A stretch of DNA of 32,000 nt. Origin: an uncultured delta proteobacterium (lineage in GTDB: Bacteria; Myxococcota_A; Polyangia; Haliangiales; Haliangiaceae). The DNA lies in NCBI GenBank assembly GCA_963743525.1, contig CAVUQH010000008.1, positions 511,667 to 543,666 on the forward strand, in the 5' to 3' direction. Shown here piece after piece: positions 2,074-32,000 of this stretch. The position numbers and the translations under genes are program-made. Positions within the stretch are counted from its first letter, which is position 1, and every line of letters begins with the position of its first letter. The notes beneath the pieces are model-generated. The model ran no database searches. It was given only the letters and a program-made list of their open reading frames with translations, and was not told the origin of the DNA.

Positions 2074-3327
<1,254 letters not shown>

Positions 3328-7955: not shown

Positions 7956-8034
7956 CCTAGCCGGCGAGCCTGGCGCCACCCACGACCCGAGTCGTCGACC
8001 GGCGTGAAGAGCTAGCCTAGCCGGCGAGCTTGGC
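7912..8034. repeat. Tandem direct duplication, 62 bp + 61 bp, spanning the convergent gene junction
   Basis: Copy 1 (7912-7973): gcgccacccacgaccccgagtcgtcaaccggcgtgaagagctagcctagccggcgagcctg. Copy 2 (7974-8034) is identical except for one deleted c and two substitutions (a>g, c>t). Each copy contains both the TAG of the plus gene and the CTA (reverse TAG) of the minus kinase gene. Confidence 0.9.
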
Positions 8035-16722: not shown

Positions 16723-17886
16723 CGCCAGCAGGCCGGCCGGCCGATCCTCGGCCAGCAGCGACGGCAGATCGAGATCGGGAAACGAGCCGCGGCCGAAGAA
16801 GACCCTCTCGGCCACGCCGGTCAGCGGGCCGACGCGCAGCGCCGCCAGCGCCAGCTCGACCGCGGCCGGCGCGCGCAACCGATCGAAGGCGCCGCGCAGC
16901 AGACGCCGCCCGCGAAAGCGATCGCGCAAGACCCGGCACTGGTACGCCCGCAGCACCGCCGGGTCCCTGCCGGCCAGCCAGGTTCGCGCGACGTCGATCG
17001 CCAGCCGGCTCTGTCGCAGGCACGGGTCGAGCCCACCGGCGGTGAGCGGCGACACCGCCCCCGACGCGTCGCCGACCAGCAGGCCGTGCTCGCAGGCGAT
17101 GCGCTCCAGCAGTCCGCCGACCGGGATGCGGCCGCCGCGGCGCTCGATGCGTGGTCCGCCTGCTGGCGCCAGTAGCTCGACCTCGGCGCGAAAGCGCTCC
17201 AGCGCCGGCACCGGTGCATAGCTCGGCCCGGCTCCGGCGACGCCGACGTGCACTTCGTGGCCGTCGTCGACCACCCACGCCAGATAGCCGGGCGCCAGCA
17301 CCGGATCGACGAAGCAGTGCATCACCGGCGCGCTGCCCGGGCGCGGCGACGGCACCACGTCCTCGACGCCGACCAGGAACCGCTGGTTGCGATCGAGGCC
17401 CAGCGCGCCGGCCACCCGCGAGCGCGCGCCGTCGGCGCCGATGACGAAGCGCGCCTCGATCGTGCGCGTGCCGCCGCCGGCCGCCCGCTCCAGCGCCACC
17501 TCGACGTGACCCGGTCGCGCGGTCGCGCCGGCAAACCGGTGCCCGCACCAGACGCGGGCGCCGGCCCGTTCCGCTTCGCCGCGCAGGCGGCGATAGAGCG
17601 AGCCCATCCGCCCGACGCGGAACTCGTCGTGCGAGCTGGTCAGGCGGAGCGATCGGCGCGCGGGCGAATACAGCACCACCTGCCGCACCGGCGGACCCAG
17701 ACAGTCGTCCGGAAGATCGAAATCCTCCAGGGTCCGGCGGACGAAGATGCCGGTCGTGTGCACCCGCTCGGCCAGGTGCCGCTTCTGATCCACCAGCACG
17801 GTCTCCAGCCCGGACTCGGCCAGGCCGCGCGCGCAGGTCAACCCGGCCAGGCCTCCCCCGACCACCAGGACGTCACAGCGTTCCAC
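16657..17886 (-). CDS. FAD-dependent oxidoreductase, geranylgeranyl-reductase-like family
   Basis: CDVLVVGGGLAGLTCARGLAESGLETVLVDQK (GxGxxG Rossmann followed by an acidic end), LLVGDASGAVSPLTAGGL (GD motif). Start taken as GTG 17886; TTG at 17937 is possible. Confidence 0.75.
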   Translation of the reverse strand: MERCDVLVVGGGLAGLTCARGLAESGLETVLVDQKRHLAERVHTTGIFVRRTLEDFDLPDDCLGPPVRQVVLYSPARRSLRLTSSHDEFRVGRMGSLYRRLRGEAERAGARVWCGHRFAGATARPGHVEVALERAAGGGTRTIEARFVIGADGARSRVAGALGLDRNQRFLVGVEDVVPSPRPGSAPVMHCFVDPVLAPGYLAWVVDDGHEVHVGVAGAGPSYAPVPALERFRAEVELLAPAGGPRIERRGGRIPVGGLLERIACEHGLLVGDASGAVSPLTAGGLDPCLRQSRLAIDVARTWLAGRDPAVLRAYQCRVLRDRFRGRRLLRGAFDRLRAPAAVELALAALRVGPLTGVAERVFFGRGSFPDLDLPSLLAEDRPAGLLASAVRALRRRAQQTAHQLDAGA

Positions 17887-17963
17887 GCCACCCGAACGCC
17901 GTGGCCCGGCCCGGCTATTCCAGGGCCACCGCGACAACCGACGATCTCCGCTATGCTCGGCGC

Positions 17964-20900: not shown

Positions 20901-21512
20901 CGACTGACCAGCAGCTTGCTGCTGTTGGCCCAGGACCGCCCCGACGATGCCGAGCTCGACCTCGACGCGGTCTCCTGGCGGCCGCCGACGGTCGGCTTCC
21001 ATCTGCAGCACTGGTGGGAGCTCGAGGCCCGCACCGAGCTGGCGATCTATCGCGGCGACGTCGCCGATCGCCTGCCCGAGCTGGAGCCGCAGTTTCGCGC
21101 GCTGGGCAAGTCGCTGCTGTTGCGCATCCAGTTCGTCCGCGCCAACTCGGCCTGGGTGTGGGCGCGCTTGTGCCTGGCACTGGGCGAGGCGCGCACTGCC
21201 GAGGTCGCCCGCGCCGCGCGCAAGCTGGCCCACGAAGGCGTCGACAACGCCGCGGTCTGGTCGGCGCTCCTGCGCGCCGCGCTGGCTTCCGCGCGCGACC
21301 CGCGCGGCGCCGCCGAGATCCTGGCCGAGGCGGCGCCGGTCGCCGAGCGGATCGGCATGCCGCTCCTGGCCCGGGTCTGCGAGCTGCGGCGGGCGCAGCT
21401 GCGCGAGAACGCCTCCCACGCCGCCGACGCGATCCGCTGGTTGCGCGGGCAGGGCGCCGTCGATCCGGAGCGCTTGGCGACCGTGCTGGCGCCCGGCTTT
21501 ACTTTGCCGTGA
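17964..21512 (+). CDS. Ser/Thr protein kinase fused to AAA/STAND-type NTPase and helical-repeat C-terminal region (PknK-like architecture)
   Basis: LGAGGTGVVYEA, VALKQL, IHRDIKPANVLV, DFGL, GTAAYMAPEQ. Then FVGREPELAALAALFERARSG...VVGDSGVGKSSLL (Walker A) and VVVITIDDFQWAD (Walker B). About 600 aa of Ala/Leu/Arg-rich helical repeats follow. Start taken as GTG 17964; GTG 17901 is an alternative. Confidence 0.85.
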   Translation: MNEIVGDGRFELVRRLGAGGTGVVYEALDRERDLRVALKQLTRLDAQSLYRFKSEFRALQDIDHPNLVRLGELVEDGRSWFMTMELVEGEEIVAYCRPGGRVDHDRVRHTFAQLAAAIEALHASGKIHRDIKPANVLVDVRGRAVLLDFGLLFDTFSTEAAEEAVVGTAAYMAPEQAASKHIGPAADWYGFGAVLYEALTGVQPFVGNLVEVLTEKQVREPPPPRERAPETPPDLDALCTALLSFEPSVRPEPRQIARGLGVDAAPATSSAPGVSSSMMGDELFVGREPELAALAALFERARSGQMALGFVVGDSGVGKSSLLRHFTNEARAAEPTSLILRGRCYERESVHFKAFDGLIDELSRHMTRMGEEDSWDILPADSALLPQVFAVMGRVRGIARATRPLRGPRDPSALRTRVFAILREIFSNLAARRVVVITIDDFQWADADSQALLSELVREPGAPPICLLVTSRDASLAPAGAEVIEVPSLPRDDAEELVRRLLEHTRVAGADARAIAAESGGHPLFIDEMVRHAALSGEPGMHLDDAIRARVARLQPEAAQLLRVVSVAGVPLATDVIRAVATLDPGQMERATSQLRVARMVRSPRQGQLEVYHDRVRAAVIESIDAGERRAMHGRLAAALETRDLARERPEVMVRHLVAAGDHQAAAAYALRAAKRAADAFAFDRAADLYHLALESGDQDAAGKRALRIELATVLAHAGRGRDAAPLLLEAASGADPATRTECQRLAARHLLQSGHFEQGIDALGEALAEQSLVLPKTPRRALASLLWQRMRLRMRGLRWHRRHAREVADSELARVNVLLDVGEALGMFDSIRGADFQVRGLREALRLGEPTRVVRGLCVEAIYAASQGGRSVARSRDLVVQLQSLVREVGDPFLEALAVTAVGIVDYLGGDLVEASKRLAEVVDRFGDLGSSWELNNARLFHSFTVRWTGQLDRRAEVREVDIGDAHRRGDMYMETAVRLTSSLLLLAQDRPDDAELDLDAVSWRPPTVGFHLQHWWELEARTELAIYRGDVADRLPELEPQFRALGKSLLLRIQFVRANSAWVWARLCLALGEARTAEVARAARKLAHEGVDNAAVWSALLRAALASARDPRGAAEILAEAAPVAERIGMPLLARVCELRRAQLRENASHAADAIRWLRGQGAVDPERLATVLAPGFTLP

Positions 21513-23046
21513 GCTCGGCGGAGACGCCGTAGCGGCCCAACAGGTCGCCGGTCAGCGCCTCGAGCCCGGTCAGCGCCGCTTGCTGGTCAACCTTGGCCCG
21601 CTCCATACTGAGCCTGGCCTGCGCCAGCTCGTCCTGGCGCGCCAGCACGTCGAAGCTGCGCGACTCGCCGGCCTGGAACAGCACCTTCTCGTTGTCCAGG
21701 TTCTTCTCGGCCAGCTCGATGGCGACGCCGGCGACCTCAATCCGCTTGCTCGCGGCGCGGAGCAGGTTCATCGCCCGCACCACCTCGACCGACAGGTCGC
21801 GCTGCAGGGTGGCCGCGTCGAGCCTGGCCTGGCTGACCCGGCCGCGGGCCACGGCGTCGGCGCCGCGCGCGCCGCGGTTGCCGAGTGCCTGCCGGTAGGT
21901 GAGGCTGGCGGTGGCCGAGAACGACGAGAAGGTACCCATCTGCTTGAGCGTGTCGCCGACGCCGGTGCTGCTGGCGTCGGGGCCGATGCTGGCGGCCGCG
22001 TCGAGGTGCGGGCGCAGCGCGTCGGCAGCGACGTCAACGTCGACGCCCGCGGTCTTTTCCTGCAGCCGCGCCAGCGCCAGGCGCGGGTTCTGCTCGCGGG
22101 CGCGCGCCAGCGCCTTGTCGAGATCGAGCGCGGCCGGCACCTCCTTGGGCAGATCGGCCGCGGTCAGATCGATCTCGCCGGGGCCGATCTCCAGTCCGAC
22201 CAGGCGGCGCAGGCTGAGCGACTGCTCCGACCGCTGGATCTCGGCGGCCAGCACCGCTTGCTCGCGCACGGCGATGGCCTGCTCGACCGCCAGCGCCTCG
22301 GTCGGCGCGGCGACCTTCTGGCCGATGGCCAGGCGGGTGATGCGCAGCTGCTCGCGGGCCAGGTCGAGCGACTGTTTGCGGATCTCCAGGGTGCGGTCGG
22401 CAAAGGCGAGCTCCCAGTAGCCGGCGATCACCTGCTGCACGGCTGCCGTTGCGGCGATCTGCCGCTGCAAGCCGGCGGCGTCGTGGGCCAGGCGCGCGCG
22501 TCGCTGCTGGGCGCGCGCCACTTTGCGCCCGCTTCCGGCCAGCAGCGGGTGGGTGATGCTGGCGATCAGCGAGCCCTGATACGTCGTCGAGTCGGCGTTC
22601 ATGCTGCTGCCGGGGCCGAGGACGATGGCGTAGGTGGTCGCGGCCCAGCCGCCCTTCAGCTTGACGTCAACGGTGCCGCCGGTCGGCAGCGCCCGGGACA
22701 GCTCGCCCTGCATCGACAGGCTGTCGTCGGCGGTGATCTGGAACGGGTTGCCCGCGACCACGTCGTGGCGCAGCGACGCCCACAGGCCCGTCGCCGACAG
22801 CTGCCAGTCGTCAACGCCCTCGGCCTGCAGCTCGCCGGCGTTGGCGATGGCGACGTCAACCGCCGTGCGCGCCAGCTCCGGGTTCTGCTGCACGATGACG
22901 TCGAGCAGCTCGCTGAGGTGGATGGAGCGCGGTGGGCGCTGGTTGGCAGCTTCGGCCGAGACGTCGGACGGTTCGCCGTCCGCGGGCTGGGCGTGGGCCT
23001 GCGGTGCCAGCAGCGCCAGCGCCAGACAGGCGGTCAGGATCTTCAT
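21499..23046 (-). CDS. TolC-family outer-membrane efflux channel
   Basis: Internal ATG 23046 of ORF 21499..23112, preceded by GAGG. Signal peptide MKILTACLALALLAPQAHA-QP. LSELLDVIVQQNPELARTAVDVAIANAGELQA plus two-fold repeat organisation is typical of outer-membrane factor proteins. Confidence 0.85.
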   Translation of the reverse strand: MKILTACLALALLAPQAHAQPADGEPSDVSAEAANQRPPRSIHLSELLDVIVQQNPELARTAVDVAIANAGELQAEGVDDWQLSATGLWASLRHDVVAGNPFQITADDSLSMQGELSRALPTGGTVDVKLKGGWAATTYAIVLGPGSSMNADSTTYQGSLIASITHPLLAGSGRKVARAQQRRARLAHDAAGLQRQIAATAAVQQVIAGYWELAFADRTLEIRKQSLDLAREQLRITRLAIGQKVAAPTEALAVEQAIAVREQAVLAAEIQRSEQSLSLRRLVGLEIGPGEIDLTAADLPKEVPAALDLDKALARAREQNPRLALARLQEKTAGVDVDVAADALRPHLDAAASIGPDASSTGVGDTLKQMGTFSSFSATASLTYRQALGNRGARGADAVARGRVSQARLDAATLQRDLSVEVVRAMNLLRAASKRIEVAGVAIELAEKNLDNEKVLFQAGESRSFDVLARQDELAQARLSMERAKVDQQAALTGLEALTGDLLGRYGVSAELTAK

Positions 23047-23050
23047 CAGT

Positions 23051-24217
23051 TCAACCTCGCATTGCCTCGGCGGGCCGGATGCGCGCAGCGCGGATTGCCG
23101 GCAAGAAGCCACCGATGACGCCCATGATGGTGCCGAACAGCAGGGCCCAGAACAGGGTCCCCGCCGTCGGATCGAAGGTGAAGACGATCTCGGACCAGGT
23201 GGCGAAGTTCATCATCGAGAACTCGACGAAACCCATCAGCAGCGCCGCGACCATGCCGATGAGGCCGCCGGTCAGCGCGATCATGATCGCCTCGAGCAGG
23301 AACGACAGGAGGATCGAGAAGCGCGAGAAGCCGAGGGCGCGCAAGGTTCCGATCTCTCGCTGTCGCTGGGCGACGGCGCCCTGCATGGTGATCAGCGCGC
23401 CGAGCATGGCGCCGAACGAGAAGAAGATGGCGATGATCATGCCCATGATCTTCATGAACTTCGCCGTGTCCTCGCTGGTGTTCTCGTAGTAGGCGCGCTC
23501 GCGCATGGCGTCCAGCCCCAGCCGCTTGTCGCTCTCGACCTTGGCCGCGAAGGTGTCGTAGGCCGCGGGTGAGGTGAGCTGGACGGTCACCGACGACACC
23601 AGGTTGTCGCGGCCGAACGAGCTGCGCACGGTGTCAACGTCTGCCCAGATCTCCGACTCGTGCGACGAGCCACCATCCTCGAACACGCCGACCACCGTGA
23701 CCGGGCGGTTGGACTTGAGCTCGAAGCTGTCGCCCAGATCGACGTGGGAGAAGCGGCCGCGGATGCGATTGCCGATGATCACCTCGTCGGTGCCAGGCCT
23801 GGCCGGGCGGCCGTCGACGATGTGCACACCGCTGTGGAAGGTCAGGGCGTTGTCGGGAACCCCGCGGACCTGCACGTTCGACACCTTGCCCGGCTCGCCG
23901 ACCTTCTCCAGGGCGATGACCACGACCAGCTCGCCGACGCCGAGCGGACCGTCGGCGTCGCGCTTGACCCCGGGGCTGTCCATCACCAGCTTGGCGGTGG
24001 CCAGGTCGATGCTGCTCGACAGCTCGGCGTCGGAGCCGTCGCGAAGGACGATGGCCCGGTCGTTGCTGCCAGTCGCGGCCATGGTCTTCTTGATGCCGTC
24101 GCTGAGCATCATCGCCGCGGCCAGGACGAACACCACCAGGCCGATACCCAGCGCCGTGGCGATGGTGGTCGCCTTGCGCACCAGCAAGCTGCGGACGTTG
24201 TAGCTGATGGGGACCAT
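23051..24217 (-). CDS. ABC transporter permease, MacB/FtsX type (permease 2)
   Basis: N-terminal TM (ATTIATALGIGLVVFVLAAAMM), about 200-aa periplasmic domain, C-terminal FtsX module (REIGTLRALGFSR...). GAGGAG RBS present. Stop lies 4 nt before the tolC-like start. Confidence 0.85.
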   Translation of the reverse strand: MVPISYNVRSLLVRKATTIATALGIGLVVFVLAAAMMLSDGIKKTMAATGSNDRAIVLRDGSDAELSSSIDLATAKLVMDSPGVKRDADGPLGVGELVVVIALEKVGEPGKVSNVQVRGVPDNALTFHSGVHIVDGRPARPGTDEVIIGNRIRGRFSHVDLGDSFELKSNRPVTVVGVFEDGGSSHESEIWADVDTVRSSFGRDNLVSSVTVQLTSPAAYDTFAAKVESDKRLGLDAMRERAYYENTSEDTAKFMKIMGMIIAIFFSFGAMLGALITMQGAVAQRQREIGTLRALGFSRFSILLSFLLEAIMIALTGGLIGMVAALLMGFVEFSMMNFATWSEIVFTFDPTAGTLFWALLFGTIMGVIGGFLPAIRAARIRPAEAMRG

Positions 24218-24227
24218 GTCGTTCTCC

Positions 24228-25415
24228 TCAGCCGACCCGCCGGATGGCGTCGACGATCTCGATCCGCGAAGACCGGTACGCGGGGATGGCAGCGGCGACG
24301 ATACCGAGCAGGATCGACAGCCCGAGGGCCATCAGCGCGGTGCTGGAGCTGACGCGGAAGACGGGGAAGAAGTTGCCCATGTTCTCTTCCAGCGCCGGGC
24401 CGATGCCGTTGTTGATCATGCCGTAGGCGCACAGCAGACCCAGTCCACCGCCGATCAGCCCGAGCGTGGCCGCCTCGCCGAGGATGAACATCACCAGGTG
24501 TCGGGGCATGAAGCCGATGGCGCGCAGCACACCATACTCGTTGGTCCGCTCGCGCACGCCCATGGCGATGGTGTTGCCGAGGATCAGCAGCATGATGGCC
24601 AGGATCACCAGCGACACCACGTTGATCGCCGTGAGCACGGCGGTCAGCATGCCCATGAACGAGATCGCCAGCTGCCGTTCGCTCATGGTCAAGGTCTGGT
24701 CCGGGTAGCCGGAGAACAACTGATCGATCTTCTTGGAGATCTCGGCGCTCCTGGACGGGTCACTGATGCGGCTGGCGATCCAGCCGACCTTGTCCTTGCG
24801 CTGCTCGGGCAGCGACTCGTTCATGTAGTTCCAGTGGAAGTAGAAGCTGTTGCGGTCGGCCGACTTGCGCGTGGCGCGGTAGATGCCGGAGATCTCGAAG
24901 TCCCAGTTGCCGGGGAAGATCGTGCCCTCGAGAGTGACCTTGTCACCGACTTTCCAGCCGAACTTCCGCGCCAGCTGATCGCCGACGATGGCGCCGCGGC
25001 GGTTGCTCAGCCACGCCTTCTTCTCCTCCGGCGTCAGGCTGATCTCGTCGTAGACGCGGAGGAACGACTCCGGGTCAACGGCCATGTTGGCGAAGAACTC
25101 CTTCTCCTTGTTGGGGTTCTTGGCGCCGAACCAGTTGGCCCAGGTGACGTCGGTGACGCCCAGCGGCTGGCCGTTGACGTCCTTGTTCTGCCGCAGCTTG
25201 TCCACGTAGCTCAGCGGCAGCGGCATGATGAAGGTGATCTTGTGCCGCGTGCCCAGGCGATCCTTGGCCGCGTACTTGGCCCCCGCCTGCCAGGCGTCGA
25301 GCACGGTGCGCAGGCCCATGAACGCCAGCATCGTCACGACGATCGCCAGGATCGTCAGCCCCGTGCGCACCTTGTTGCGCAACAGGTTCTTCGCCGCGTA
25401 GGTGGCGGCGTTCAT
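24228..25415 (-). CDS. ABC transporter permease, MacB/FtsX type (permease 1; clearly different in sequence from permease 2)
   Basis: AAKNLLRNKVRTGLTILAIVVTMLAF, periplasmic domain, RERTNEYGVLRAIGFMPRHL FtsX module. ATGA overlap with the ATPase stop. Confidence 0.85.
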   Translation of the reverse strand: MNAATYAAKNLLRNKVRTGLTILAIVVTMLAFMGLRTVLDAWQAGAKYAAKDRLGTRHKITFIMPLPLSYVDKLRQNKDVNGQPLGVTDVTWANWFGAKNPNKEKEFFANMAVDPESFLRVYDEISLTPEEKKAWLSNRRGAIVGDQLARKFGWKVGDKVTLEGTIFPGNWDFEISGIYRATRKSADRNSFYFHWNYMNESLPEQRKDKVGWIASRISDPSRSAEISKKIDQLFSGYPDQTLTMSERQLAISFMGMLTAVLTAINVVSLVILAIMLLILGNTIAMGVRERTNEYGVLRAIGFMPRHLVMFILGEAATLGLIGGGLGLLCAYGMINNGIGPALEENMGNFFPVFRVSSSTALMALGLSILLGIVAAAIPAYRSSRIEIVDAIRRVG

Positions 25416-26167
25416 TGCAGCTGTCCCTTGTCGAGCTTGCGCACGATCGACGCGCGCTCGGCGGCGGCGGGATCGTGGGTGACCATGATGATGGTCTTGT
25501 CGAACTCCTTGTTGAGCTTGCCCAGCAGGTCGAGAACTTCACTGGCGCTGTCGCGGTCGAGGTCACCGGTCGGCTCGTCGGCGACGATGATCTTGGGGTC
25601 GTTGACGATGGCGCGGGCGATGGCCACGCGCTGTTCCTGACCACCGGACAGCTGCTTGGGCAGGTGGCTCACGCGGTCGGCCAGGCCGACTGCCTTGAGC
25701 GCGATGTTCGCCCGCTTCTTGCGCTCCTTGCCCGACAGGTGGGTGAGCAGCAGCGGCAGCTCGACGTTCTGCAGCGCGGTGAGCACCGGGATCAGGTTGA
25801 ACGACTGGAAGACGAAGCCGATGTTGGCCGCGCGCCACCTGGCGCGGGTGCCCTCGCTCATGCCGCCGACGTCGGCGCCGTCGATCTGCACCGTGCCCCG
25901 CGTCGGCACGTCGAGGCCGGCGATCAGGTTGAGCAAGGTCGATTTGCCCGAGCCTGACGGCCCCATCAGCGCCTCGAAGGCGCCCTGCTGCACGTCGAGG
26001 TCGAGGTCCTGGAGCACGTCCAGGCGCTCCTTGCCGCGCCAGTAGGTCTTGCTGATCTGGCGCAGCTTGATGATGTGCTCGATCTCTTTGGTGCCGCGAT
26101 AGACCGCTTCTTCGCCCGCGCGCTCCTTCTCGTCACCCGTCTCCGTCTCCGTCGTCGCGTCGCTCAT
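25412..26167 (-). CDS. ABC transporter ATP-binding protein (MacB/LolD-like)
   Basis: Internal ATG 26167 of ORF 25412..26590. GPSGSGKSTLLN (Walker A), LSGGQEQRVAIARA (signature), IIVADEPTGDLD (Walker B), MVTHD (H-loop). ATGA overlap with the adaptor stop. Confidence 0.92.
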   Translation of the reverse strand: MSDATTETETGDEKERAGEEAVYRGTKEIEHIIKLRQISKTYWRGKERLDVLQDLDLDVQQGAFEALMGPSGSGKSTLLNLIAGLDVPTRGTVQIDGADVGGMSEGTRARWRAANIGFVFQSFNLIPVLTALQNVELPLLLTHLSGKERKKRANIALKAVGLADRVSHLPKQLSGGQEQRVAIARAIVNDPKIIVADEPTGDLDRDSASEVLDLLGKLNKEFDKTIIMVTHDPAAAERASIVRKLDKGQLQ

Positions 26168-27405
26168 CCGTCGGTCCTTTCTTCGACGCGCTGTCCGTCG
26201 GACAGCGACCCGCTTGGATTCTTGACCACGTGGGTGCCCGCCGGCGGGCCCTGCGTGAGTACGAAGCCGCCGGCGTATTTCTCGCCCACGGCGACGGGGG
26301 TCATGCGCAGCTTGCCGTCGTCGATCACGAACACCACCTTGCTGCCGCCGCGGTTGGTGATCGCATTTTCGGGAACCACCAGCTTGGGCTGTTCCTTCAC
26401 CGCTTCGGCGTCGAGCGCCTGGGTCAGGAAGCTGGCGCGGGCGCTCATGTCGGGCAGCACGCCGGTCGGCTCGTCGACGAACGAGACCTTGACCGTGACC
26501 GTGGCCTTGGCCCGGTTGACCACCGGCACGATCTCCTTGACCTTGCCGCGGAACCGCTTGCTGGGGAACGCATCGAGGACAATCTCGCACGGCCCGCCCG
26601 CCTTGACCATGTGCAGGCGGCCTTCGGGGACGTCGGTCTCGACCACCAGGGTCGAGAAGTCGGCGATCTCGACCGCGCCGGTCAGCTCGGCGGCGGCGCC
26701 GCCGGGAACCGGTGTGATGACCTCGCCGATCTCGGGCGGCTTGTTGAGGATGCGGCCGGCGAGCGGCGCCAGCACGGTGAAGCCGTCGAGGTTGATCTCG
26801 AGCGCCTTGACCTGAGCCTGGGCGGCCCGGACCTCGGCGTCGGCGGCGCGGGCCGACTGCTCCAGCGAGCTCTGCCGCGCCTCGAGGTCGTCGGCGGTGG
26901 CCTCGGGGCGGACGCCGCGGGTGGCCAGCTTGCGCGCGCGCTCGGCCTGCAGCCTGATCTCGGTCAGGCTGGCGCGGGACGCCTGGGCACGGGCGCGGGC
27001 GGCGGCGACCTGGGCCTGGGCCTGGGCGATGGCGGCCGTCTGATCAGAGGTATCGAGGACGTACAGCACGTCGCCGGCCTTCACCGTCTGTCCCTGCTGC
27101 ACGTCAACCCGCGTCACCTTGCCGCTGACCTTGGGCGCGACCTTCGAGATCCGCTCGGCCTGAACGTAGCCGGTGCTGGTCAGCTCGATCGACGCCTGCG
27201 CCGGCGACACCAGCGTGATCTCGGTGACGTCGACCTTGGTCTGGAACACCTGGGCGCGCAGGTACGGGACCGCGAGGAAGTAGATCGCTCCACCGGCCGC
27301 GGCCACGATGACCAGGGCGATGATGATCTTCCTGGCCAAACCGCTGGAGGGCGGCGTTTCGCGGTCGATACGGAGGGACGCAAGGTCGCTGGAAAGGTCC
27401 GACAT
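26164..27405 (-). CDS. Periplasmic adaptor (HlyD/MacA membrane-fusion family)
   Basis: TM anchor KIIIALVIVAAAGGAIYFLAV, lipoyl-like VSGKVTRVDVQQGQTVKAGDVLYVLD, long Ala/Gln/Arg coiled-coil hairpin, barrel segments. Start is ATG 27405; 27423 and 27447 are alternatives. Confidence 0.85.
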   Translation of the reverse strand: MSDLSSDLASLRIDRETPPSSGLARKIIIALVIVAAAGGAIYFLAVPYLRAQVFQTKVDVTEITLVSPAQASIELTSTGYVQAERISKVAPKVSGKVTRVDVQQGQTVKAGDVLYVLDTSDQTAAIAQAQAQVAAARARAQASRASLTEIRLQAERARKLATRGVRPEATADDLEARQSSLEQSARAADAEVRAAQAQVKALEINLDGFTVLAPLAGRILNKPPEIGEVITPVPGGAAAELTGAVEIADFSTLVVETDVPEGRLHMVKAGGPCEIVLDAFPSKRFRGKVKEIVPVVNRAKATVTVKVSFVDEPTGVLPDMSARASFLTQALDAEAVKEQPKLVVPENAITNRGGSKVVFVIDDGKLRMTPVAVGEKYAGGFVLTQGPPAGTHVVKNPSGSLSDGQRVEERTDG

Positions 27406-27447
27406 GGGCAGCTGCCGGAACATAGCGGAGCAGTTGCCCGCTGGCAA

Positions 27448-27548: not shown

Positions 27549-28502
27549 TCAGCCCGATAGCGCGTCGGCCAGCGCCTCGGCGACCAGCGCGGCGTTGGAC
27601 AGCCGCTCTTGCGGCTCCTTGGCCAGCACCTGGGCGAAGAACTGGTCGATGCGCGGGCCCAGCTGCGGCTTGAGCCCGTAGGCGCTGGGGATCGGATCGC
27701 GGACGTGGGCGACCATCGCCTCCAGCGGCGTGCGCCCGCTGAACGGGCGGATGCCGGTGAGCATCTCGAAGGTGATGATGCCCAGGGCGTAGATGTCACA
27801 GCGCCAGTCGGTGACGTGGCCGACCTTGGCCGCCTCGGGCGCGAGATAGGCGGGCGTGCCGACGGTGGTGTGCTTGCCGGTGATGTTGACCGGCGTGCGC
27901 TGCGAGTCGGCCAGCTGCGCCAGGCCGAAGTCGAGGACCTTGACGAACGGCGACAGCGGCGACGGGTAGTCGGTGAAGTGGATGTTCTCCGGCTTCAGAT
28001 CGCGGTGGACGATGCCGGCGGAGTGGGCTTCGCCCAGGGCGCTGGCGCACTGCGCGACGATCGACAGGGTCTCGCCCGGCGCCAGCGCGCCCTGGCGCTC
28101 GAGTCGGTCGCGCAAGGTCTCGCCCTCGAGGTACTCCATGACGATGAACGAGTAGCCACTGGGCGTGGCGCCGCAGTCGTAGAACTGGATCGCGTGGGGC
28201 GAGCGCAGTCGGGCCACCGCCTCGACCTCGCGGCGGAAGCGCACGGCGGAGTCGTCGTCGGTGAGCTCGGTGCGCAGCACCTTGACCGCGACCTCGCGCC
28301 CGACCGACACCTGGTGGGCGAGGTAGACGCGCGCCATGTTGCCGGCGCCCAGCAGGCGGCGCACCCGGTAGCGGCCGAGCAGGCTGTGGCCGATCAGGCG
28401 ATCGGTCTCGTCGGCGATGGGGTTGGGGTCGAGGATGGGTGGGACGGTCAACAACACGGACTCCGGGTCAAGCAAGCGCCGCGCCAGGCCGGCATGCACC
28501 AA
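27549..28502 (-). CDS. Eukaryote-like Ser/Thr protein kinase, kinase domain only (about 317 aa)
   Basis: LGAGNMARVYLA, VAVKVL, VHRDLKPENIHF, DFGLAQ, GTPAYLAPE. No sensor or TM domain. The start is non-ATG (TTG 28502 or GTG 28499). Confidence 0.88.
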   Translation of the reverse strand: MVHAGLARRLLDPESVLLTVPPILDPNPIADETDRLIGHSLLGRYRVRRLLGAGNMARVYLAHQVSVGREVAVKVLRTELTDDDSAVRFRREVEAVARLRSPHAIQFYDCGATPSGYSFIVMEYLEGETLRDRLERQGALAPGETLSIVAQCASALGEAHSAGIVHRDLKPENIHFTDYPSPLSPFVKVLDFGLAQLADSQRTPVNITGKHTTVGTPAYLAPEAAKVGHVTDWRCDIYALGIITFEMLTGIRPFSGRTPLEAMVAHVRDPIPSAYGLKPQLGPRIDQFFAQVLAKEPQERLSNAALVAEALADALSG

Positions 28503-28640: not shown

Positions 28641-29351
28641 TCACGGCTCTGCTCCCAGCAGCTCCTCCCAGTGGGTGGAGAAGGCGAGGTAGTCGACCGG
28701 ATCGAAGCGCCCGGCGTCGAGCGCATCGCGCTGGGCCGGGGTGAGCGAGTCGCGGAAGCGGCCGGCCATCTCGTCGAGGAGGTCGAGGATGTCGCGGGCG
28801 AAGCCGACCACCGTTGCCGGACGCCACGGCGGCATCACTTCGCCGTTCATCACCGCCTCGACCACGCGCTGGCGCACCTGGTCGGCGGTGTCGCGGACCG
28901 TCTGTTCGAGGGCGTCGCGCTGGCTCTGGTCGAGGCCGACCCGCCGGGCAAAGTCGTCGAGGTTGCGCTGGACGCGGGCGCGCTGCGGCGCGAGCAGCTC
29001 TTTGGCCACCGGCAACATGCGGTCGCGGTAGGCGAGCATGTTCTCGCCCGGCAGCGGCGCAAACGCGGCGGCCAGCGCGCCGACTTCGGTGGGCACCTTC
29101 ACCCGCGGCATCTCCCGCGGGGGCGCGTTGGCCGTGTCGTTGCGCACGGGGTCATCACCCGCGGGCGCGGGCGACCTGTCGCCGGGTCGATCGCGTTCGG
29201 CGCGCACCGCGGCCAGGGCGTGATCGAGCTCGCGCGCGGCGTGCTCGTCGCTGAGCGCGGCGCCAGCCTTGCACGCCTGCCACCACGCAAGTACCGTGGT
29301 GGTCGCGAAGAGCAGAGTGAGCGTCCGCCACGTCTGCGTCGTCACCGGCAC
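28641..29351 (-). CDS. Exported/anchored protein with LTxxQ-type motifs (Spy/CpxP/ZraP-like, tentative)
   Basis: GTG start. Signal/anchor WRTLTLLFATTTVLAWWQA. Two helical motifs, GLDQSQRDALEQTV and SLTPAQRDALDAG, about 65 aa apart resemble the paired LTxxQ motifs of the CpxP/Spy family. GC3 bias is good. Confidence 0.55.
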   Translation of the reverse strand: MPVTTQTWRTLTLLFATTTVLAWWQACKAGAALSDEHAARELDHALAAVRAERDRPGDRSPAPAGDDPVRNDTANAPPREMPRVKVPTEVGALAAAFAPLPGENMLAYRDRMLPVAKELLAPQRARVQRNLDDFARRVGLDQSQRDALEQTVRDTADQVRQRVVEAVMNGEVMPPWRPATVVGFARDILDLLDEMAGRFRDSLTPAQRDALDAGRFDPVDYLAFSTHWEELLGAEP

Positions 29352-29398
29352 GGCGTTGACTATACCGCGGGCAGTTCCGGCAGCGTCAGGGGGGATTC

Positions 29399-31051
29399 AT
29401 GACACGGCGATTCCATGCCGTCGTGCTGTTGTTTGGGGTTTGTGCGTGCAGCGCCGCGGATACCCGCGTCGATCCGGCAGAGCTGTCGCTGCGCGACCTG
29501 CTGGGCATGTCGCCGGAGGTCGCCGCCGGCTGGAGCGACAGCGAGCGGGCGGCGGCGCGCGGCGTCATCGAGGCGCGGCTCGACGATGCCGCCGGCGCCG
29601 AGTCGGTGCCGCTCGGCGCCGGGCGCACCGATCGGCAGTCGATGATCGCCAGCCTCGACAGCTACGACCGGCTGCGCGACGGTCGCGGTCGCGACGCGGT
29701 TCCGCTGGCGCGCGCCGACCTCGACGGCTTCGACGTGATCGTGTCGCCGATCGGCATGGCCGGGCTGGAGGCGGAGGAGGGTGTCGACGCGCCGATCGAG
29801 CTGAAGGGCTGGGATCGCCCGGTGCTGGCGGAGCTGGCGCGCACGAGGCGGCGGGTGATCGTCGCGCTGGCGCGGGCGTCGGGCGGCACCGAGGAGACGC
29901 TGCGCGTCGAGCCGGCCGAACAGGTCGGGTTCGGCGCCGCGCGGCTGTCGGATCCGCCGGCGCTGCTGGTCAACCCGGTGCTGCTGGCGGCCGTCGACCC
30001 GGAGGCCGACGCCGACGCGCAGCCGGCGGCGATGCGCAGCGGCGGCGGCGGGGCGCCGTCGTCGGCTCCGGCGCCGGCGCGCGCGGTGGCCGCGGGCAAC
30101 CCCTACGCCTTCTATGGATCGGTGGCCGAGTGCGCCGCCGCCGAGCGGTTGCGCTGCGAGTCGTGCCTGCCGTCGTCGACCTGCGACGCCGAGTCGCGCG
30201 ACGCCAGCGACGGCAACGCCGAGTGCACGGCGCTGGCTGCCGACGACGGCGTCGGCTATTTCCTGTTCTGCGCCAACCTGGCGCTGGCGATCCGCACGGT
30301 CGAGACCTGCACGGGCGAGGCCGTGCCCGGCTGCACGCCGGTGTCGACCGCCAGCAATCAGATCAGCGCGCTGGATGCCAACCGCGACTTCGTCGACGAT
30401 CCGGTCTGCCGCGACGGGCTGGATTCGTGTCTGAGCAAGCTGTACGGCGACCCCGCCGACGACTACCCCGGCCCGCCCAGCGACGCCGGCCCGTCGCCCG
30501 AGCCGCCGCCGGCGCGCGATCCGACCGCGTCGTGCGGCGGCAGCGACACCAACTGCGATTTCTCGCCCCAGTGCTCGGCCAGCTGCGGTGATCCCGACTG
30601 CTCCAACACCATCGACTGCAACTCGAGCTGCGACGACAGCTCGAGCGGCAGCAGCAGCGGTGGGTGCGGCGGCTGCGGCAGCGACTCGTCGAGCTCCGGC
30701 GGCGGCAGCTGCAGCTCGTGCGGCAGCGACTCGTCGAGCTCCGGCTCCGGCTGCGACTCCAGCTGCGGCAGCTCGAACAGCGGCGGCAGCGGCTGCGGCA
30801 GCTGCAGCAACGACTCGAGCGGCGGCAGTGGCTGCGGCGGCAGTTGCGGCGGCTCCAACAGCAGCGGCAACGGTTGTGGCAGCAGCAGCTCGTCGAGCTC
30901 GAGCTGCAGCGCATCGGGCGCCACGGCGCGGCACACGGCGGCGACGGCGGTGGCGGTCATCTGGGCGATGTTCCCGCTGCCGCTGCTGATGTGGCTGCGG
31001 CGGCGCGAGCGCCGGCGATCCACTGACGGCGACGACGGAGGTGAGTCGTGA
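29399..31051 (+). CDS. Cys-rich Ser/Gly-repeat lipoprotein with MYXO-CTERM-like C-terminal sorting tail
   Basis: MTRRFHAVVLLFGVCAC-SA signal/lipobox-like N-terminus. About 31 Cys. C/S/G array GGCGGCGSDSSSSGGGSCSSCGSDSSSSGSGCDSSCGSSNSGGSGCGSCSNDSSGGSGCGGSCGGSNSSGNGCGSSSSSSSSC. Tail is C-SASGATARHTAATAVAVIWAMFPLPLLMWL-RRRERRR. Confidence 0.75.
   Translation: MTRRFHAVVLLFGVCACSAADTRVDPAELSLRDLLGMSPEVAAGWSDSERAAARGVIEARLDDAAGAESVPLGAGRTDRQSMIASLDSYDRLRDGRGRDAVPLARADLDGFDVIVSPIGMAGLEAEEGVDAPIELKGWDRPVLAELARTRRRVIVALARASGGTEETLRVEPAEQVGFGAARLSDPPALLVNPVLLAAVDPEADADAQPAAMRSGGGGAPSSAPAPARAVAAGNPYAFYGSVAECAAAERLRCESCLPSSTCDAESRDASDGNAECTALAADDGVGYFLFCANLALAIRTVETCTGEAVPGCTPVSTASNQISALDANRDFVDDPVCRDGLDSCLSKLYGDPADDYPGPPSDAGPSPEPPPARDPTASCGGSDTNCDFSPQCSASCGDPDCSNTIDCNSSCDDSSSGSSSGGCGGCGSDSSSSGGGSCSSCGSDSSSSGSGCDSSCGSSNSGGSGCGSCSNDSSGGSGCGGSCGGSNSSGNGCGSSSSSSSSCSASGATARHTAATAVAVIWAMFPLPLLMWLRRRERRRSTDGDDGGES
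30590..30915 (+). repeat. Imperfect tandem coding repeats (about 45-bp period) built from TGC/AGC/TCG/GGC codons
   Basis: Exact 27-nt duplicate tgcggcagcgactcgtcgagctccggc at 30674-30700 and 30719-30745. Related degenerate units are on either side. The composition creates spurious long ORFs in several frames on both strands. Confidence 0.8.
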
Positions 31052-32000
31052 GGCGCGCCGTCGTCGACTGGCTGGCGCAGTGGATCGGCCGCGACTGGGC
31101 GGCGGTGCTGGCGCCCGGGTGGTTCACCTTTGCCGGGCTGGCGGCGATTGCGGCCGGGCTGCTGGCGGCGCGTGCGGCGCGGGATCGGGGCCAGGACCCC
31201 GAGCGCGTGCTGCGCGCGATCGCCTGGGGCTACGTCGCCGCGGTCGTCTGCGGCATCGCCGGACCGATGCTGTGGGACGCCGGCGATCGACTGCTGGCCG
31301 GTCGCGCGCCGCGCTTGCGCTGGGCCGGGATGACCTCGTGGGCCGGTTTCGCCGGCGGCATCGCCACCATGGCCTGGGTCTGGCGGCGCTCGGCGCCGGC
31401 GGGCGCGCCGGCGTCGGCGGTGCCGCTGTTCGATCTGTTGGTGGCGCCGATGGGCGTGGCGCTGGTGTGCGCGCGGCTGGGCTGCTTCGTCGCCGGCTGC
31501 GACTTCGGCAAGGTGTCGTCGGCGCCGTGGGCGATGCGCTTTCCCGCTGGCAGCCCGGCCTGGCACGCGCACGTGTCCGCCGGTCTGGTGCCGAGCGGGA
31601 GGGCGTGGTCGCTGCCGGTCCACCCGACCCAGCTGTACGAGGCGTTTCTCGGGTTGGCGATCGCGGTCGTTGCGCTGTGGCTCGGTCGCACCGCCTGGGC
31701 GCGCGCGCGTGCCGGGCGGGTGGCGCTGGCCGGCGTGATCCTCTACGCCGTCGGGCGCTTTGTCATCGAGGATCTGCGCGCCGATATGGGCCGCGGCTTC
31801 TTTGGTCCGCTGTCGCTGGGCCAGGCGATGTCGCTGGCGGTCGTGGTCGCGGCGGCCGCTGCGTTGGCCGCCACCCACCGCCGCGCGATCGTTGCGGCGG
31901 CGGGCGCCGCGCTGGTCGCGCTGGTCTTCGCTTCGCACCCGGCCGCCGCGCAGGAGAGCGAGCCGCGGCCGATCGATCCGTACGGGGGCGGGACCGCGTC
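31048..32000 (+). CDS. Lgt-family (prolipoprotein diacylglyceryl transferase-like) membrane protein with extra C-terminal TM/extension; 3' end outside the window
   Basis: Absent from the ORF track (no stop in the window). I translated the frame by hand from GTG 31048, which overlaps the upstream TGA as GTGA, and found no stop to position 32000. Motifs: CARLGCFVAGCDFGK (cf. E. coli GRIGNFINGELWG), LPVHPTQLYEAFLGLAI (cf. HPSQLYE), YAVGRFVIEDLRAD (cf. GxFRFxxEFFRxPD), GPLSLGQAMSLAVV (cf. GLSMGQILS). Then AIVAAAGAALVALVFASHPAAAQESEP... Confidence 0.8.
   Translation, partial: MRRAVVDWLAQWIGRDWAAVLAPGWFTFAGLAAIAAGLLAARAARDRGQDPERVLRAIAWGYVAAVVCGIAGPMLWDAGDRLLAGRAPRLRWAGMTSWAGFAGGIATMAWVWRRSAPAGAPASAVPLFDLLVAPMGVALVCARLGCFVAGCDFGKVSSAPWAMRFPAGSPAWHAHVSAGLVPSGRAWSLPVHPTQLYEAFLGLAIAVVALWLGRTAWARARAGRVALAGVILYAVGRFVIEDLRADMGRGFFGPLSLGQAMSLAVVVAAAAALAATHRRAIVAAAGAALVALVFASHPAAAQESEPRPIDPYGGGTA

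What the first reader, a model, noticed from the sequence alone, without database searches (positions are those of the whole stretch)
29399..31051. Cysteine-rich protein with sorting/lipidation signals at both ends (lipobox + MYXO-CTERM-like tail)
Seen: the N-terminus MTRRFHAVVLLFGVCACSA has a basic n-region, a hydrophobic core and Cys residues in a lipobox-like context. The protein has about 31 Cys in 550 aa. The roughly 130 aa before the tail are almost exclusively C/S/G/D/N. They form closely spaced Cys pairs (CGGC, CSSC, CDSSC, CGSC, CGGSC) separated by Ser/Gly spacers. The C-terminus reads Cys503-SASGATARHTAATAVAVIWAMFPLPLLMWL-RRRERRR, that is Cys, then a hydrophobic helix, then an Arg cluster. 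Established: this tripartite layout is the one described for the MYXO-CTERM putative sorting signal (TIGR03901). It is proposed to be cleaved, with attachment at the Cys, for surface display. Inference: the protein would be acylated or anchored at both ends, joined by a metallothionein-like or disulfide-ladder stalk. I cannot map that to any characterised family. The array could bind metal, act as a redox buffer or carry several acylation sites.
Basis: partly seen in the sequence, partly recalled or inferred. Interest (0 to 1): 0.72.

Follow-up and report, generated by a model that had tools for sequence, protein, structure and literature searches.

The report
Cysteine-tailed envelope protein with dedicated Lgt
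This gene encodes a myxobacterial envelope protein with a lipoprotein signal at one end and a conserved cysteine, membrane helix and arginine tail at the other. It is almost always fused in an operon to its own divergent copy of the enzyme that attaches lipids to cysteines, which makes it a natural test case for how C-terminal cysteine sorting tags get lipidated.

Summary
ORF 29399..31051(+) is real (GC3 0.92) and has 31 Cys in 550 aa. Residues 379-503 are 94% C/S/G/D/N. The tail reads Cys503, then a TM helix, then RRRERRR.

It is not a TIGR03901 MYXO-CTERM member. The window tail gives no hit. Distant relatives reach 14-17.5 bits against a cut-off of 20.

The protein belongs to a small family with no Pfam or NCBIfam model, from Kofleriaceae/Haliangiales. 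The family has 139 representatives among 1.84 billion proteins. Members share an invariant lipobox Cys, two confidently folded domains with no PDB match, and a disordered Cys/Gly/Ser/Asp stalk of variable length. The C-terminal module is the most conserved part. The last Cys lies 19-20 residues before an invariant Trp.

The key new fact concerns gene context. In 36 of 38 testable loci the next gene, usually overlapping by 4 nt, encodes a divergent Lgt-family diacylglyceryl transferase. That enzyme is usually fused to an OmpA-like 8-stranded barrel. A third small membrane protein also co-occurs.

Best reading: this is a dedicated substrate-transferase module, and Cys503 is the likeliest extra lipidation site. 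This is inferred, not shown. The array behaves as a spacer, not a metallothionein.

The parts
29399..31051 (+). Gene for the 550-aa Cys-array envelope protein (here called 'CAP'). It has an ATG start and a TGA stop at 31049-31051.
   Evidence: ORF list. GC3 is 0.92. There are 99 homologous clusters and 139 representatives at 50% identity.
29399..29449 (+). Lipoprotein-type signal peptide. It has a basic n-region (R3, R4) and a hydrophobic core. The lipobox is V-C-A-C17.
   Evidence: C17 is invariant in alignment A1. The lipobox-like pattern is matched in the window protein and in 56 of 82 homologues under a strict rule.
29456..30007 (+). N-terminal alpha/beta domain (residues about 20-203). 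It contains the invariant motif L29..R32-D33-x-L35-G36.
   Evidence: AF2 pLDDT is mostly above 90. Invariant columns are listed. Foldseek found no PDB match.
30095..30523 (+). All-helical domain (residues about 233-375) with 10 conserved Cys. It starts at the invariant GNPY-x-F-x-G-S..EC motif.
   Evidence: AF2 pLDDT is above 90. C245, C276, C291, C304, C312, C337 and C344 are invariant. C253, C256 and C262 are at least 90% conserved.
30524..30634 (+). Conserved Cys-dense segment (residues 376-412): CGGSDTNCDFSPQCSASCGDPDCSNTIDCNSSC.
   Evidence: It is 92% identical to the orthologue. C379, C392, C401, C407 and C411 are conserved.
30635..30904 (+). Variable, disordered Cys/Gly/Ser/Asp array (residues 413-502).
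   Evidence: pLDDT is below 50. The DNA shows degenerate tandem repeats. It is 69% identical to the orthologue, with indels. Length ranges from about 0 to 250 aa in relatives.
30905..31018 (+). Conserved C-terminal module (residues 503-540). It comprises invariant Cys503, a spacer, a TM helix (about 513-533, with invariant W522 and P526) and the RRRERRR cluster.
   Evidence: Invariant columns are. The helix is predicted. Cys-to-Trp spacing is 19 aa in 51 of 94 homologues and 20 aa in 15 of 94. Identity to the orthologue is 95%, with 11 synonymous differences. There is no TIGR03901 hit.
31019..31048 (+). Short acidic cytoplasmic tail, STDGDDGGES.
   Evidence: A tail is present but variable in relatives. 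50 of 94 have more than 10 aa after the basic cluster. 63 of 94 end in E-[VDAE]-x-x.
31037..31041 (+). GGAGG Shine-Dalgarno-like sequence, lying inside the end of the CAP gene. It sits 6 nt upstream of the GTG start of the next gene.
   Evidence: Read directly from the sequence.
31048..31998 (+). Divergent Lgt-family (prolipoprotein diacylglyceryl transferase) gene. Its GTG start overlaps the CAP stop (GTGA). It is cut off by the end of the window. In orthologues it continues into a Pro-rich linker and an 8-stranded OmpA-like barrel.
   Evidence: PF01790 E 3.7e-33. TIGR00544 scores 58.7 bits against a cut-off of 118.9. The full-length orthologue is in L001. Synteny holds in 36 of 38 loci.
28641..29351 (-). 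Third conserved gene of the module. It encodes a 236-aa protein with an N-terminal TM helix followed by a conserved helical domain. It is transcribed divergently here.
   Evidence: tblastn finds it in about 27 loci, usually just downstream of the Lgt gene. Alignment is A3. Hints of LTXXQ or Metal_resist are weak and below threshold.

Best explanation
**Shown**
- The ORF encodes a member of a small family of envelope proteins restricted to Kofleriaceae/Haliangiales.
- The layout is:
  1. a lipoprotein signal peptide with lipobox Cys17;
  2. two folded extracytoplasmic domains, the second helical with 10 conserved Cys;
  3. a disordered Cys/Gly/Ser/Asp stalk of very variable length;
  4. a strongly conserved C-terminal module.
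- The C-terminal module consists of an invariant Cys, a basic spacer of about 10 aa, a TM helix containing Trp and Pro, an Arg cluster and a short cytoplasmic tail.
- The gene is translationally coupled to a divergent Lgt-family diacylglyceryl transferase. That enzyme keeps every phosphatidylglycerol-binding residue. It is usually fused, through an eighth helix resembling a signal peptide and a Pro-rich linker, to an OmpA-like 8-stranded outer-membrane barrel.
- A third small membrane protein completes the module.

**Inferred**
- The Lgt paralogue is the dedicated lipid transferase for this one protein.
- The canonical-looking lipobox at Cys17 needs no special enzyme. The invariant Cys503, held at a fixed distance from the C-terminal helix, is therefore the most likely extra acceptor of a thioether-linked diacylglycerol.
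- The protein would then be lipid-anchored at both ends.
- The array serves as a flexible spacer that could be cross-linked by disulfides.

**Open**
I cannot say whether the C-terminal helix is then cut off, as myxosortase does for MYXO-CTERM, or retained.
For: **Gene pairing**
- An Lgt-domain gene follows on the same strand in 36 of 38 loci with enough DNA. 34 of these show an exact 4-nt overlap.
- The pairing holds for homologues at only 27-36% identity (L002, L048, L049).
- It holds for a relative that lacks the central domain (L044).
- It holds for P0473, which has almost no array.
- A second paralogous pair lies in the same assembly as L002 (L045).

**Partner enzyme**
- PF01790 E about 1e-32.
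- R143, T198, E202, Y235, R239, E243, R246 and G154 are kept.
- It scores 58-74 bits on TIGR00544. Polyangiaceae Lgts that PGAP names as Lgt score 96-110.
- It differs from those Lgts at Y26 and in the HGGL side-cleft motif.

**Tail**
- C503, W522 and P526 are invariant.
- Cys-to-Trp spacing is fixed at 19-20 aa in 66 of 94 homologues.
- The tail is the most conserved segment, and it carries synonymous changes.
- Distant members end right after the basic cluster and score 14-17.5 bits on TIGR03901.

**Literature**
The MYXO-CTERM Cys is thought to be lipidated by an unidentified "Lgt-like acyl-transferase" before myxosortase cleavage (PMC11980579).
Against: - No experiment or structure shows which Cys is modified, or whether any is.
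- The partner could act only on the N-terminal lipobox.
- I could not show that these genomes also carry a separate housekeeping Lgt. The last homologue search was saturated by Polyangiaceae.
- Half of the family has more than 10 residues after the Arg cluster, often ending in a conserved E-E-V-x-x motif. That fits a retained cytoplasmic tail better than a discarded sorting peptide.
- No CPBP or myxosortase-type protease is conserved nearby.
- One partner of a distant relative (P0201) has housekeeping-like Y26 and YGGL motifs.
- One locus (L043) has the third gene but no Lgt. There the CAP gene is frameshifted.
Confidence: 0.45

Rival explanations
1. The partner Lgt (or the housekeeping Lgt) modifies only the N-terminal lipobox Cys17. 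The C-terminal segment is an ordinary stop-transfer anchor with a functional cytoplasmic tail. It may dock in the membrane with the Lgt-barrel protein and the third protein as a structural envelope-spanning complex.
For: - The lipobox is canonical-looking and invariant.
- Many tails extend well past the Arg cluster and end in a conserved E-E-V-x-x motif.
- Pro and Trp in the helix suggest specific helix packing.
- No protease is conserved nearby.
- The partner has a Pro-rich linker and an OM barrel, which suggests a trans-envelope scaffold.
Against: - A canonical lipobox needs no private enzyme.
- The terminal Cys is invariant at a fixed distance from the helix, even where the array has vanished.
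- The pair has duplicated as a unit.
Confidence: 0.27
2. The tail is a true but divergent MYXO-CTERM sorting signal. After lipidation, the genome's myxosortase (MrtX) cleaves it and the protein is displayed on the cell surface through the type II secretion system.
For: - The tail has the tripartite layout and comes from a Myxococcota host.
- Distant family members score 14-17.5 bits on TIGR03901 (cut-off 20) and end right after the Arg cluster.
Against: - The window protein and its close relatives give no TIGR03901 hit.
- The helix contains Pro. Haft describes MYXO-CTERM helices as free of Pro and charged residues.
- There is a charged spacer and a C-terminal extension.
- An N-terminal lipid plus surface display by type II secretion would be an unusual combination.
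- The presence of mrtX in these genomes was not tested.
Confidence: 0.12
3. Many cysteines of the array, each preceded by small Gly or Ser residues as in a lipobox, are diacylglycerylated by the partner Lgt. The result would be a poly-lipidated protein.
For: - Nearly every array Cys has G or S at positions -1 and -2.
- A private Lgt is encoded next door.
- Anchoring at both ends would hold the array at the membrane surface.
Against: - The number and positions of array Cys are not conserved.
- Members with almost no array keep the Lgt partner.
- The Gly/Ser context follows from overall composition, so it is not independent evidence.
Confidence: 0.07
4. The array is a metal-binding or redox-buffering (metallothionein-like) domain. 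The neighbouring Lgt gene is incidental.
For: - Cys reaches 15% in the array, and the window protein has CxxC and CxxxC pairs.
- The third gene gives weak sub-threshold hits to Metal_resist and LTXXQ families.
Against: - The CxxC register is not conserved among homologues.
- The array is predicted disordered and is dispensable in some members.
- The location is extracytoplasmic and therefore oxidising.
- There are no Pfam or NCBIfam metal-binding hits.
- Synteny of 36 of 38 loci, mostly with a 4-nt overlap, is not incidental.
Confidence: 0.06

Closest known systems
MYXO-CTERM sorting signal (TIGR03901) with myxosortase MrtX (Haft 2023 preprint 10.1101/2023.06.07.544157; mBio 2025, PMC11980579)
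   Same: - The host phylum is Myxococcota.
- The C-terminal layout is an invariant Cys, a TM helix, then an Arg cluster in the cytoplasm.
- Lipidation of the Cys by an Lgt-like enzyme is the proposed first step.
- A head, Cys-rich stalk and tag architecture resembles TraA (from memory).
- Distant family members come close to the HMM cut-off (17.5 against 20 bits).
   Different: - The window tail gives no HMM hit.
- There is a charged spacer of about 10 aa between the Cys and the helix.
- The helix has invariant Trp and Pro.
- There is an extra cytoplasmic tail.
- The protein also has an N-terminal lipobox.
- This is one dedicated target with its own Lgt-family gene, rather than dozens of targets served by a CPBP protease.
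- No protease is encoded in the module.
Canonical lipoprotein pathway enzyme Lgt (PF01790, TIGR00544; E. coli structure 5AZB)
   Same: - The partner has the Lgt fold (Foldseek 5azb E 4e-6; profile E 3e-20).
- It keeps R143, G154, H196-P-x-Q-L-Y-E202, Y235, R239, E243 and R246.
   Different: - It scores half the equivalog cut-off.
- Y26 and the H103-G-G-L motif are replaced.
- It carries an eighth helix ending in A-x-A|Q, a Pro-rich linker and an OmpA-like barrel.
- It is translationally coupled to a single protein.
- It is not next to lspA. The M. xanthus housekeeping lgt is next to lspA (PMC8689077).
Dedicated sorting-enzyme and single-target gene pairs, e.g. MrtJ with a JDVT-CTERM protein (Haft 2023)
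   Same: It is a conserved two-gene neighbourhood of one membrane enzyme and one protein carrying a Cys-containing C-terminal tripartite tag.
   Different: The enzyme here is a lipid transferase homologue, not a CPBP endopeptidase. The lineage is different, and there is no NF033191 hit (6.3 bits).
OmpA/OmpX/NspA-type 8-stranded outer-membrane barrels (PF13505)
   Same: The C-terminal domain of the partner has 8 strands with pLDDT above 90. TM-scores are 0.65-0.74 to 1qjp, 4rlc, 1p4t and 1qj9. PF13505 is recorded for 3 members.
   Different: The barrel is fused behind an inner-membrane enzyme. In L049 a barrel-like protein is instead a separate gene with its own signal peptide.
Metallothioneins and Cys-rich metal-binding repeats
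   Same: High Cys density, with CxxC and CxxxC pairs in the window protein.
   Different: The array is exported and predicted disordered. It is dominated by Gly, Ser and Asp. Its register is not conserved, and it is dispensable in some family members.

Membership tests
MYXO-CTERM (TIGR03901.2) | HMM score at or above the curated cut-off (20 bits) | tested here: not met
   There is no hit at E<=10 for the whole protein, the 59-aa tail or the 40-aa tail. Tails of distant relatives score 9.7-17.5 bits.
MYXO-CTERM (TIGR03901.2) | Invariant Cys in a short signature motif (often GCGC) directly before the TM helix | tested here: inconclusive
   The Cys is invariant. It is followed by a conserved x-V-A-[RK] motif and a spacer of about 10 aa. 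Distant members have C-K-C.
MYXO-CTERM (TIGR03901.2) | TM helix without charged or proline residues (Haft 2023) | tested here: not met
   The helix reads W522-A-M-F-P526-L-P528. P526 is invariant.
MYXO-CTERM (TIGR03901.2) | Arg-rich cluster at the extreme C-terminus | tested here: not met
   RRRERRR is present but is followed by 10 residues. 50 of 94 relatives have more than 10. Some distant members do end at RRPS.
MYXO-CTERM (TIGR03901.2) | Cleavage by myxosortase MrtX and surface display through the type II secretion system | not testable with these tools
   This needs the whole genome and an experiment. No CPBP gene is conserved within about 5 kb in 40-odd loci.
Bacterial lipoprotein (lipobox, PROSITE PS51257-type rule recalled from memory) | Basic n-region, hydrophobic core, [LVI..][AST..][GAS]-Cys within the first 15-35 residues | tested here: met
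   MTRRFHAVVLLFGVCAC17 fits the pattern. C17 is invariant in A1. LipoP and SignalP were not available.
Lgt family (PF01790), applied to the downstream partner | Pfam gathering score | tested here: met
   115.3 bits against 24.9. Partners in L001, L002, L048 and L049 score 98-114 bits.
Lgt equivalog (TIGR00544), applied to the downstream partner | Curated equivalog cut-off of 118.9 bits | tested here: not met
   58.7 bits. Other partners score 40.7-74 bits. Polyangiaceae Lgts score 96-110 and P0204 scores 138.7.
Lgt, catalytic and PG-binding residues (E. coli numbering; PMC8689077) | R143, Y235, R239 (plus E202, E243, R246, G154) and the H103-G-G-L motif | tested here: inconclusive
   All PG-binding residues are kept. 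H103-G-G-L is replaced by W-A-G-F, F-W-G-Y or Y-C-G-F, and Y26 by W or F. N146 to C and E151 to C are shared with Polyangiaceae Lgts, so they are not paralogue-specific.
8-stranded OM beta-barrel (PF13505), partner C-domain; lies beyond the window end | Eight antiparallel strands with structural similarity to OmpA, OmpX or NspA | tested here: met
   The AF2 model of P0104 has 8 strands with pLDDT above 90. Foldseek TM-scores are 0.65-0.74 with E about 1e-5 to 1e-6.
Metallothionein-like metal-binding domain | A conserved Cys register forming metal clusters | tested here: not met
   There are no family hits. The register is not conserved. The array is absent in P0473 and P0413. Metal content is not testable here.

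The most novel reading that the evidence does not exclude
The partner is a specialised Lgt that puts a diacylglyceryl thioether on a cysteine lying upstream of a C-terminal membrane helix. That is a lipobox in inverted topology.

This would be the first identified enzyme class for lipidating Cys-containing C-terminal sorting tags. The same step is still missing from the MYXO-CTERM/myxosortase pathway.

Here the enzyme is caught in a one-enzyme, one-substrate operon and is physically tied to an outer-membrane barrel.
Probability: 0.35. Interest if true: 0.85.

Novelty: new variant of a known kind. Interest (0 to 1): 0.7.

Why it matters
The MYXO-CTERM field has found the protease, myxosortase. 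It has not found the enzyme that lipidates the invariant cysteine. Lgt is only a "leading candidate", and the inverted topology of the substrate is flagged as a problem (PMC11980579).

This locus supplies comparative-genomic evidence of the kind that revealed other sorting enzymes. A protein with a Cys, helix and Arg tail is encoded, almost without exception, in a translationally coupled pair with its own divergent Lgt. That yields a compact two-gene system that can be expressed and analysed by mass spectrometry.

It also reveals an unusual fusion of an inner-membrane lipid transferase to an OmpA-like outer-membrane barrel. In addition there are two confidently predicted domains with no structural relatives in the PDB.

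Tried and rejected
**Searches that found nothing useful**
- Exact lookup of the window protein's contig found no record.
- A single-sequence PDB search with the partner Lgt found nothing. A profile was needed.
- Foldseek of the CAP model against the PDB gave no match (best E 0.2).
- For the third protein, the profile search against the PDB found nothing. Pfam gave only sub-threshold Metal_resist and LTXXQ hints, so I do not call it a Spy/CpxP homologue.
- There are no tRNA or Rfam features in the window.

**Ideas tested and dropped**
- Cys parity. I asked whether the mature protein always has an odd number of Cys, meaning pairs plus one free Cys. The split was 37 even to 30 odd, so this gives no support.
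- I first read N146 to C and E151 to C in the partner as signs of altered chemistry. I rejected this. Lgts from Polyangium, Sorangium and Minicystis that PGAP names as Lgt, and a protein that passes TIGR00544, have the same RxGC..GC[DC]xG signature.

**Questions left unsettled**
- The last homologue search, with a Polyangiaceae-type Lgt, aimed to find a second, canonical Lgt in Kofleriaceae. The 120 rows shown were all Polyangiaceae, so the question is open.
- P0200 (L046) and P0207 (L047) are Lgt homologues without a CAP neighbour. They are not informative about the family.
- A search for other conserved neighbours, especially a CPBP protease, found none. A TPR protein appears in about 8 loci and kinases in about 7.
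Full report
**1. Observation**

The ORF at 29399..31051(+) is present and encodes 550 aa. GC by codon position is 0.66/0.64/0.92. That is the signature of a real gene in this roughly 70% GC genome. The long overlapping ORFs on both strands are shadow frames.

The protein has exactly 31 Cys. Two are in the signal peptide (15, 17), ten lie between 245 and 344, and nineteen lie between 379 and 503. Residues 379-503 are 94% S/G/C/D/N. Other ORFs of the window contain 0.88% Cys. The enrichment gives P about 1e-15 for the protein and 5e-18 for the array. The DNA of the array is a degenerate tandem repeat with periods of 39 and 81 nt.

**2. Known families**

Pfam and NCBIfam (release 20.0) give no hit at E<=10 for the whole protein, the first 358 aa or the isolated tail. 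In particular there is no TIGR03901 (MYXO-CTERM) hit.

**3. The family**

A word-indexed search found 99 clusters. An exhaustive phmmer run against 1.84 billion representatives found only 139 at E<=1e-3 and 85 at E<=1e-10. Named sources and 41 genome loci are essentially all Kofleriaceae, Haliangiales or "Deltaproteobacteria" MAGs. Every source calls the protein hypothetical.

The alignment of 39 members (A1) shows these conserved features:
- C17 is invariant, in a lipobox-like context.
- An L..RD.LG motif is invariant.
- A GNPY.F.GS..EC motif opens a domain with 10 conserved Cys.
- A Cys-dense segment is conserved (C379...C411).
- A low-complexity Cys/Gly/Ser/Asp array follows, with variable length and sequence.
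- C503, W522 and P526 are invariant, followed by a basic cluster.

AlphaFold2 run with this alignment gives pLDDT above 90 for residues about 21-200 (alpha/beta) and 235-375 (helical). It gives below 50 for 379-509, and predicts a helix at 509-543. Foldseek finds no PDB relative (best E 0.2).

**4. The tail**

- The last Cys lies 19 residues before the invariant Trp in 51 of 94 homologues, and 20 residues before it in 15 of 94.
- The consensus is C-[SNQ]-V-[AT]-[RK].
- Against the 82% orthologue (L001), the tail is the best-conserved segment at 95% identity. It carries 11 synonymous codon differences, which indicates purifying selection.
- By contrast the array is 69% identical, with indels.
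- The helix contains Pro. The Cys is separated from the helix by a charged spacer. Half of the family has more than 10 residues after the basic cluster, and 63 of 94 end in an E-[VDAE]-x-x type ending, most often E-E-V-x-x.
- These traits conflict with the published description of MYXO-CTERM, which has no Pro or charge in the helix and often a GCGC motif.
- Distant family members (27-34% identity) end immediately after the Arg cluster, and some carry C-K-C. Their tails score 14-17.5 bits on TIGR03901, just under the cut-off of 20.
- I therefore treat the tail as a divergent relative or analogue of MYXO-CTERM, not a member.

**5. The decisive context**

The next gene starts at GTG 31048 and overlaps the TGA stop, giving GTGA. 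A GGAGG sequence lies 6 nt upstream. The gene encodes an Lgt-family protein, with PF01790 E 3.7e-33.

Across all loci with at least 300 nt downstream, 36 of 38 have an Lgt gene on the same strand starting at the stop of the family gene. 34 of these overlap by exactly 4 nt. The two exceptions both have frameshifted family genes. L035 still has the Lgt gene. L043 has lost it.

The pairing survives:
- down to 27-36% identity (L002, L048, L049);
- in a relative that lacks the central domain but keeps the array and a C-Q-V-S-R...RRRRR tail (L044);
- in P0473, which has almost no array.

A second, paralogous pair occurs in the same assembly as L002 (L045). Other neighbours are not conserved, with one exception. 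A roughly 220-aa membrane-anchored helical protein (window 28641..29351, minus strand) is present in about 27 loci. It gives only weak LTXXQ and Metal_resist hints.

**6. The partner enzyme**

A profile of 33 partners matches E. coli Lgt (5AZB) at E 3e-20. The residues that hold phosphatidylglycerol are all kept: R143, S/T198, E202, Y235, R239, E243 and R246, as listed in PMC8689077. G154 is kept as well.

The partners score only 58-74 bits on the Lgt equivalog model TIGR00544, whose cut-off is 118.9. Polyangiaceae Lgts that PGAP names as Lgt score 96-110. Relative to those, the partners differ at Y26 and in the H103-G-G-L side-cleft motif.

The RxGC..GCDxG signature first looked special. It is shared with the Polyangiaceae enzymes, so I do not use it as evidence.

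Full-length partners continue into:
- an eighth helix ending in A-x-A|Q;
- a Pro-rich linker;
- eight beta strands with pLDDT above 90.

The strands superpose on the OmpA, OprF, NspA and OmpX barrels with TM-scores of 0.65-0.74. In L049 a barrel-like protein is a separate gene with its own signal peptide (...CAQAQ|TPE). This suggests the eighth helix of the fusions is an internal signal peptide. That step is inference.

**7. Mechanism**

*Shown:* the architecture, its conservation, the obligate gene pairing and the retention of the lipid-binding site.

*From established knowledge:* Lgt transfers diacylglycerol from phosphatidylglycerol to a Cys thiol next to a membrane helix. The MYXO-CTERM Cys is thought to be lipidated by an unidentified "Lgt-like" enzyme, with inverted topology noted as the difficulty (PMC11980579). 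No later paper in the library names that enzyme.

*Inference:* the partner is the private transferase of this protein. The N-terminal lipobox looks canonical. The pairing tracks the terminal Cys and helix rather than the array. Cys503 is therefore the likeliest additional acceptor.

The array behaves as a variable spacer. Its length runs from about 0 to 250 aa. It has no conserved register and no Cys parity rule (37 even to 30 odd).

*Open:* whether the helix is later removed. The conserved cytoplasmic ending and the absence of a nearby protease argue for retention in this subfamily.

**8. Limits**

- I could not show that these genomes hold a second, housekeeping Lgt.
- I could not run LipoP or SignalP.
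- I could not scan whole genomes for mrtX or for other proteins carrying this tail.
- The rival in which the partner serves only Cys17, and the tail is a structural anchor, remains credible.

**9. Verdict**

It is partly wrong: this is not a TIGR03901 member, and the metallothionein idea is unsupported.

The locus is a previously undescribed three-gene envelope module. It is built around a dedicated Lgt paralogue and is best classed as a new variant of Cys-based C-terminal anchoring systems.

Noticed in passing
window 31048-31998 (+), continuing beyond the window; full length in L001 9632-11137 and L002 7951-9681: An inner-membrane Lgt homologue is fused to an OmpA-like 8-stranded outer-membrane barrel. 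The connection is an extra helix ending in A-x-A|Q, which looks like a signal peptidase I site, plus a Pro-rich linker. In L045 and L044 the barrel is missing. In L049 a barrel-like protein is a separate gene.
   Followed up: yes
window 28641-29351 (-): A 236-aa protein with an N-terminal TM helix and a conserved C-terminal helical domain (motifs YRDR..P.A...APQR.RV and L..DQR..L...FD..DYL.FS..WE). It co-occurs with the pair in about 27 loci. It gives only sub-threshold LTXXQ and Metal_resist hints. Just 47 bp separate its start from the CAP start.
   Followed up: partly
C-termini of homologues (e.g. P0020 ...EEVVS, P0062 ...EEVAS, P0042 ...QEVQP); TPR gene at L002 5110-5964 (-): Many family members end in E-E-V-x-x after a variable cytoplasmic tail. 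A TPR protein is a neighbour in about 8 loci. This recalls EEVD-TPR recognition in eukaryotic chaperones. The link is speculative.
   Followed up: no
L043 2316-4719; L035 4869-6611: Two loci have frameshifts inside the repetitive Cys array. In L043 the Lgt gene is also absent while the third gene remains. The cause could be assembly error or decay of the module.
   Followed up: partly
window 21499-27447 (-): A MacB-type tripartite efflux operon: an outer-membrane factor, two MacB_PCD/FtsX permeases and a HlyD-family adaptor. The orthologous locus L001 also has the ABC ATPase. It is conserved with L001 but not with more distant loci.
   Followed up: partly
window 17445-21512 (+); also 2074-3327 (+), 8017-9978 (-), 27549-28502 (-): Four Ser/Thr protein kinase genes lie within 32 kb. 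One encodes a protein of about 1200-1350 aa that combines a kinase domain with a STAND-type ATPase (AAA_16/NACHT).
   Followed up: no
window 29360-30934 (-) and 29269-30591 (+): These are very long Ala/Arg-rich open frames overlapping the gene. They are shadow ORFs of a high-GC coding region (first-position GC 0.89-0.92), not genes.
   Followed up: yes
L044 3865-5849: A more distant module. It encodes a 379-aa lipoprotein with an LAGC lipobox, no central Cys domain, an Asp/Ser/Cys array and a ...NCQVSRG...RRRRR* tail. A 282-aa Lgt gene overlaps it by 4 nt.
   Followed up: partly
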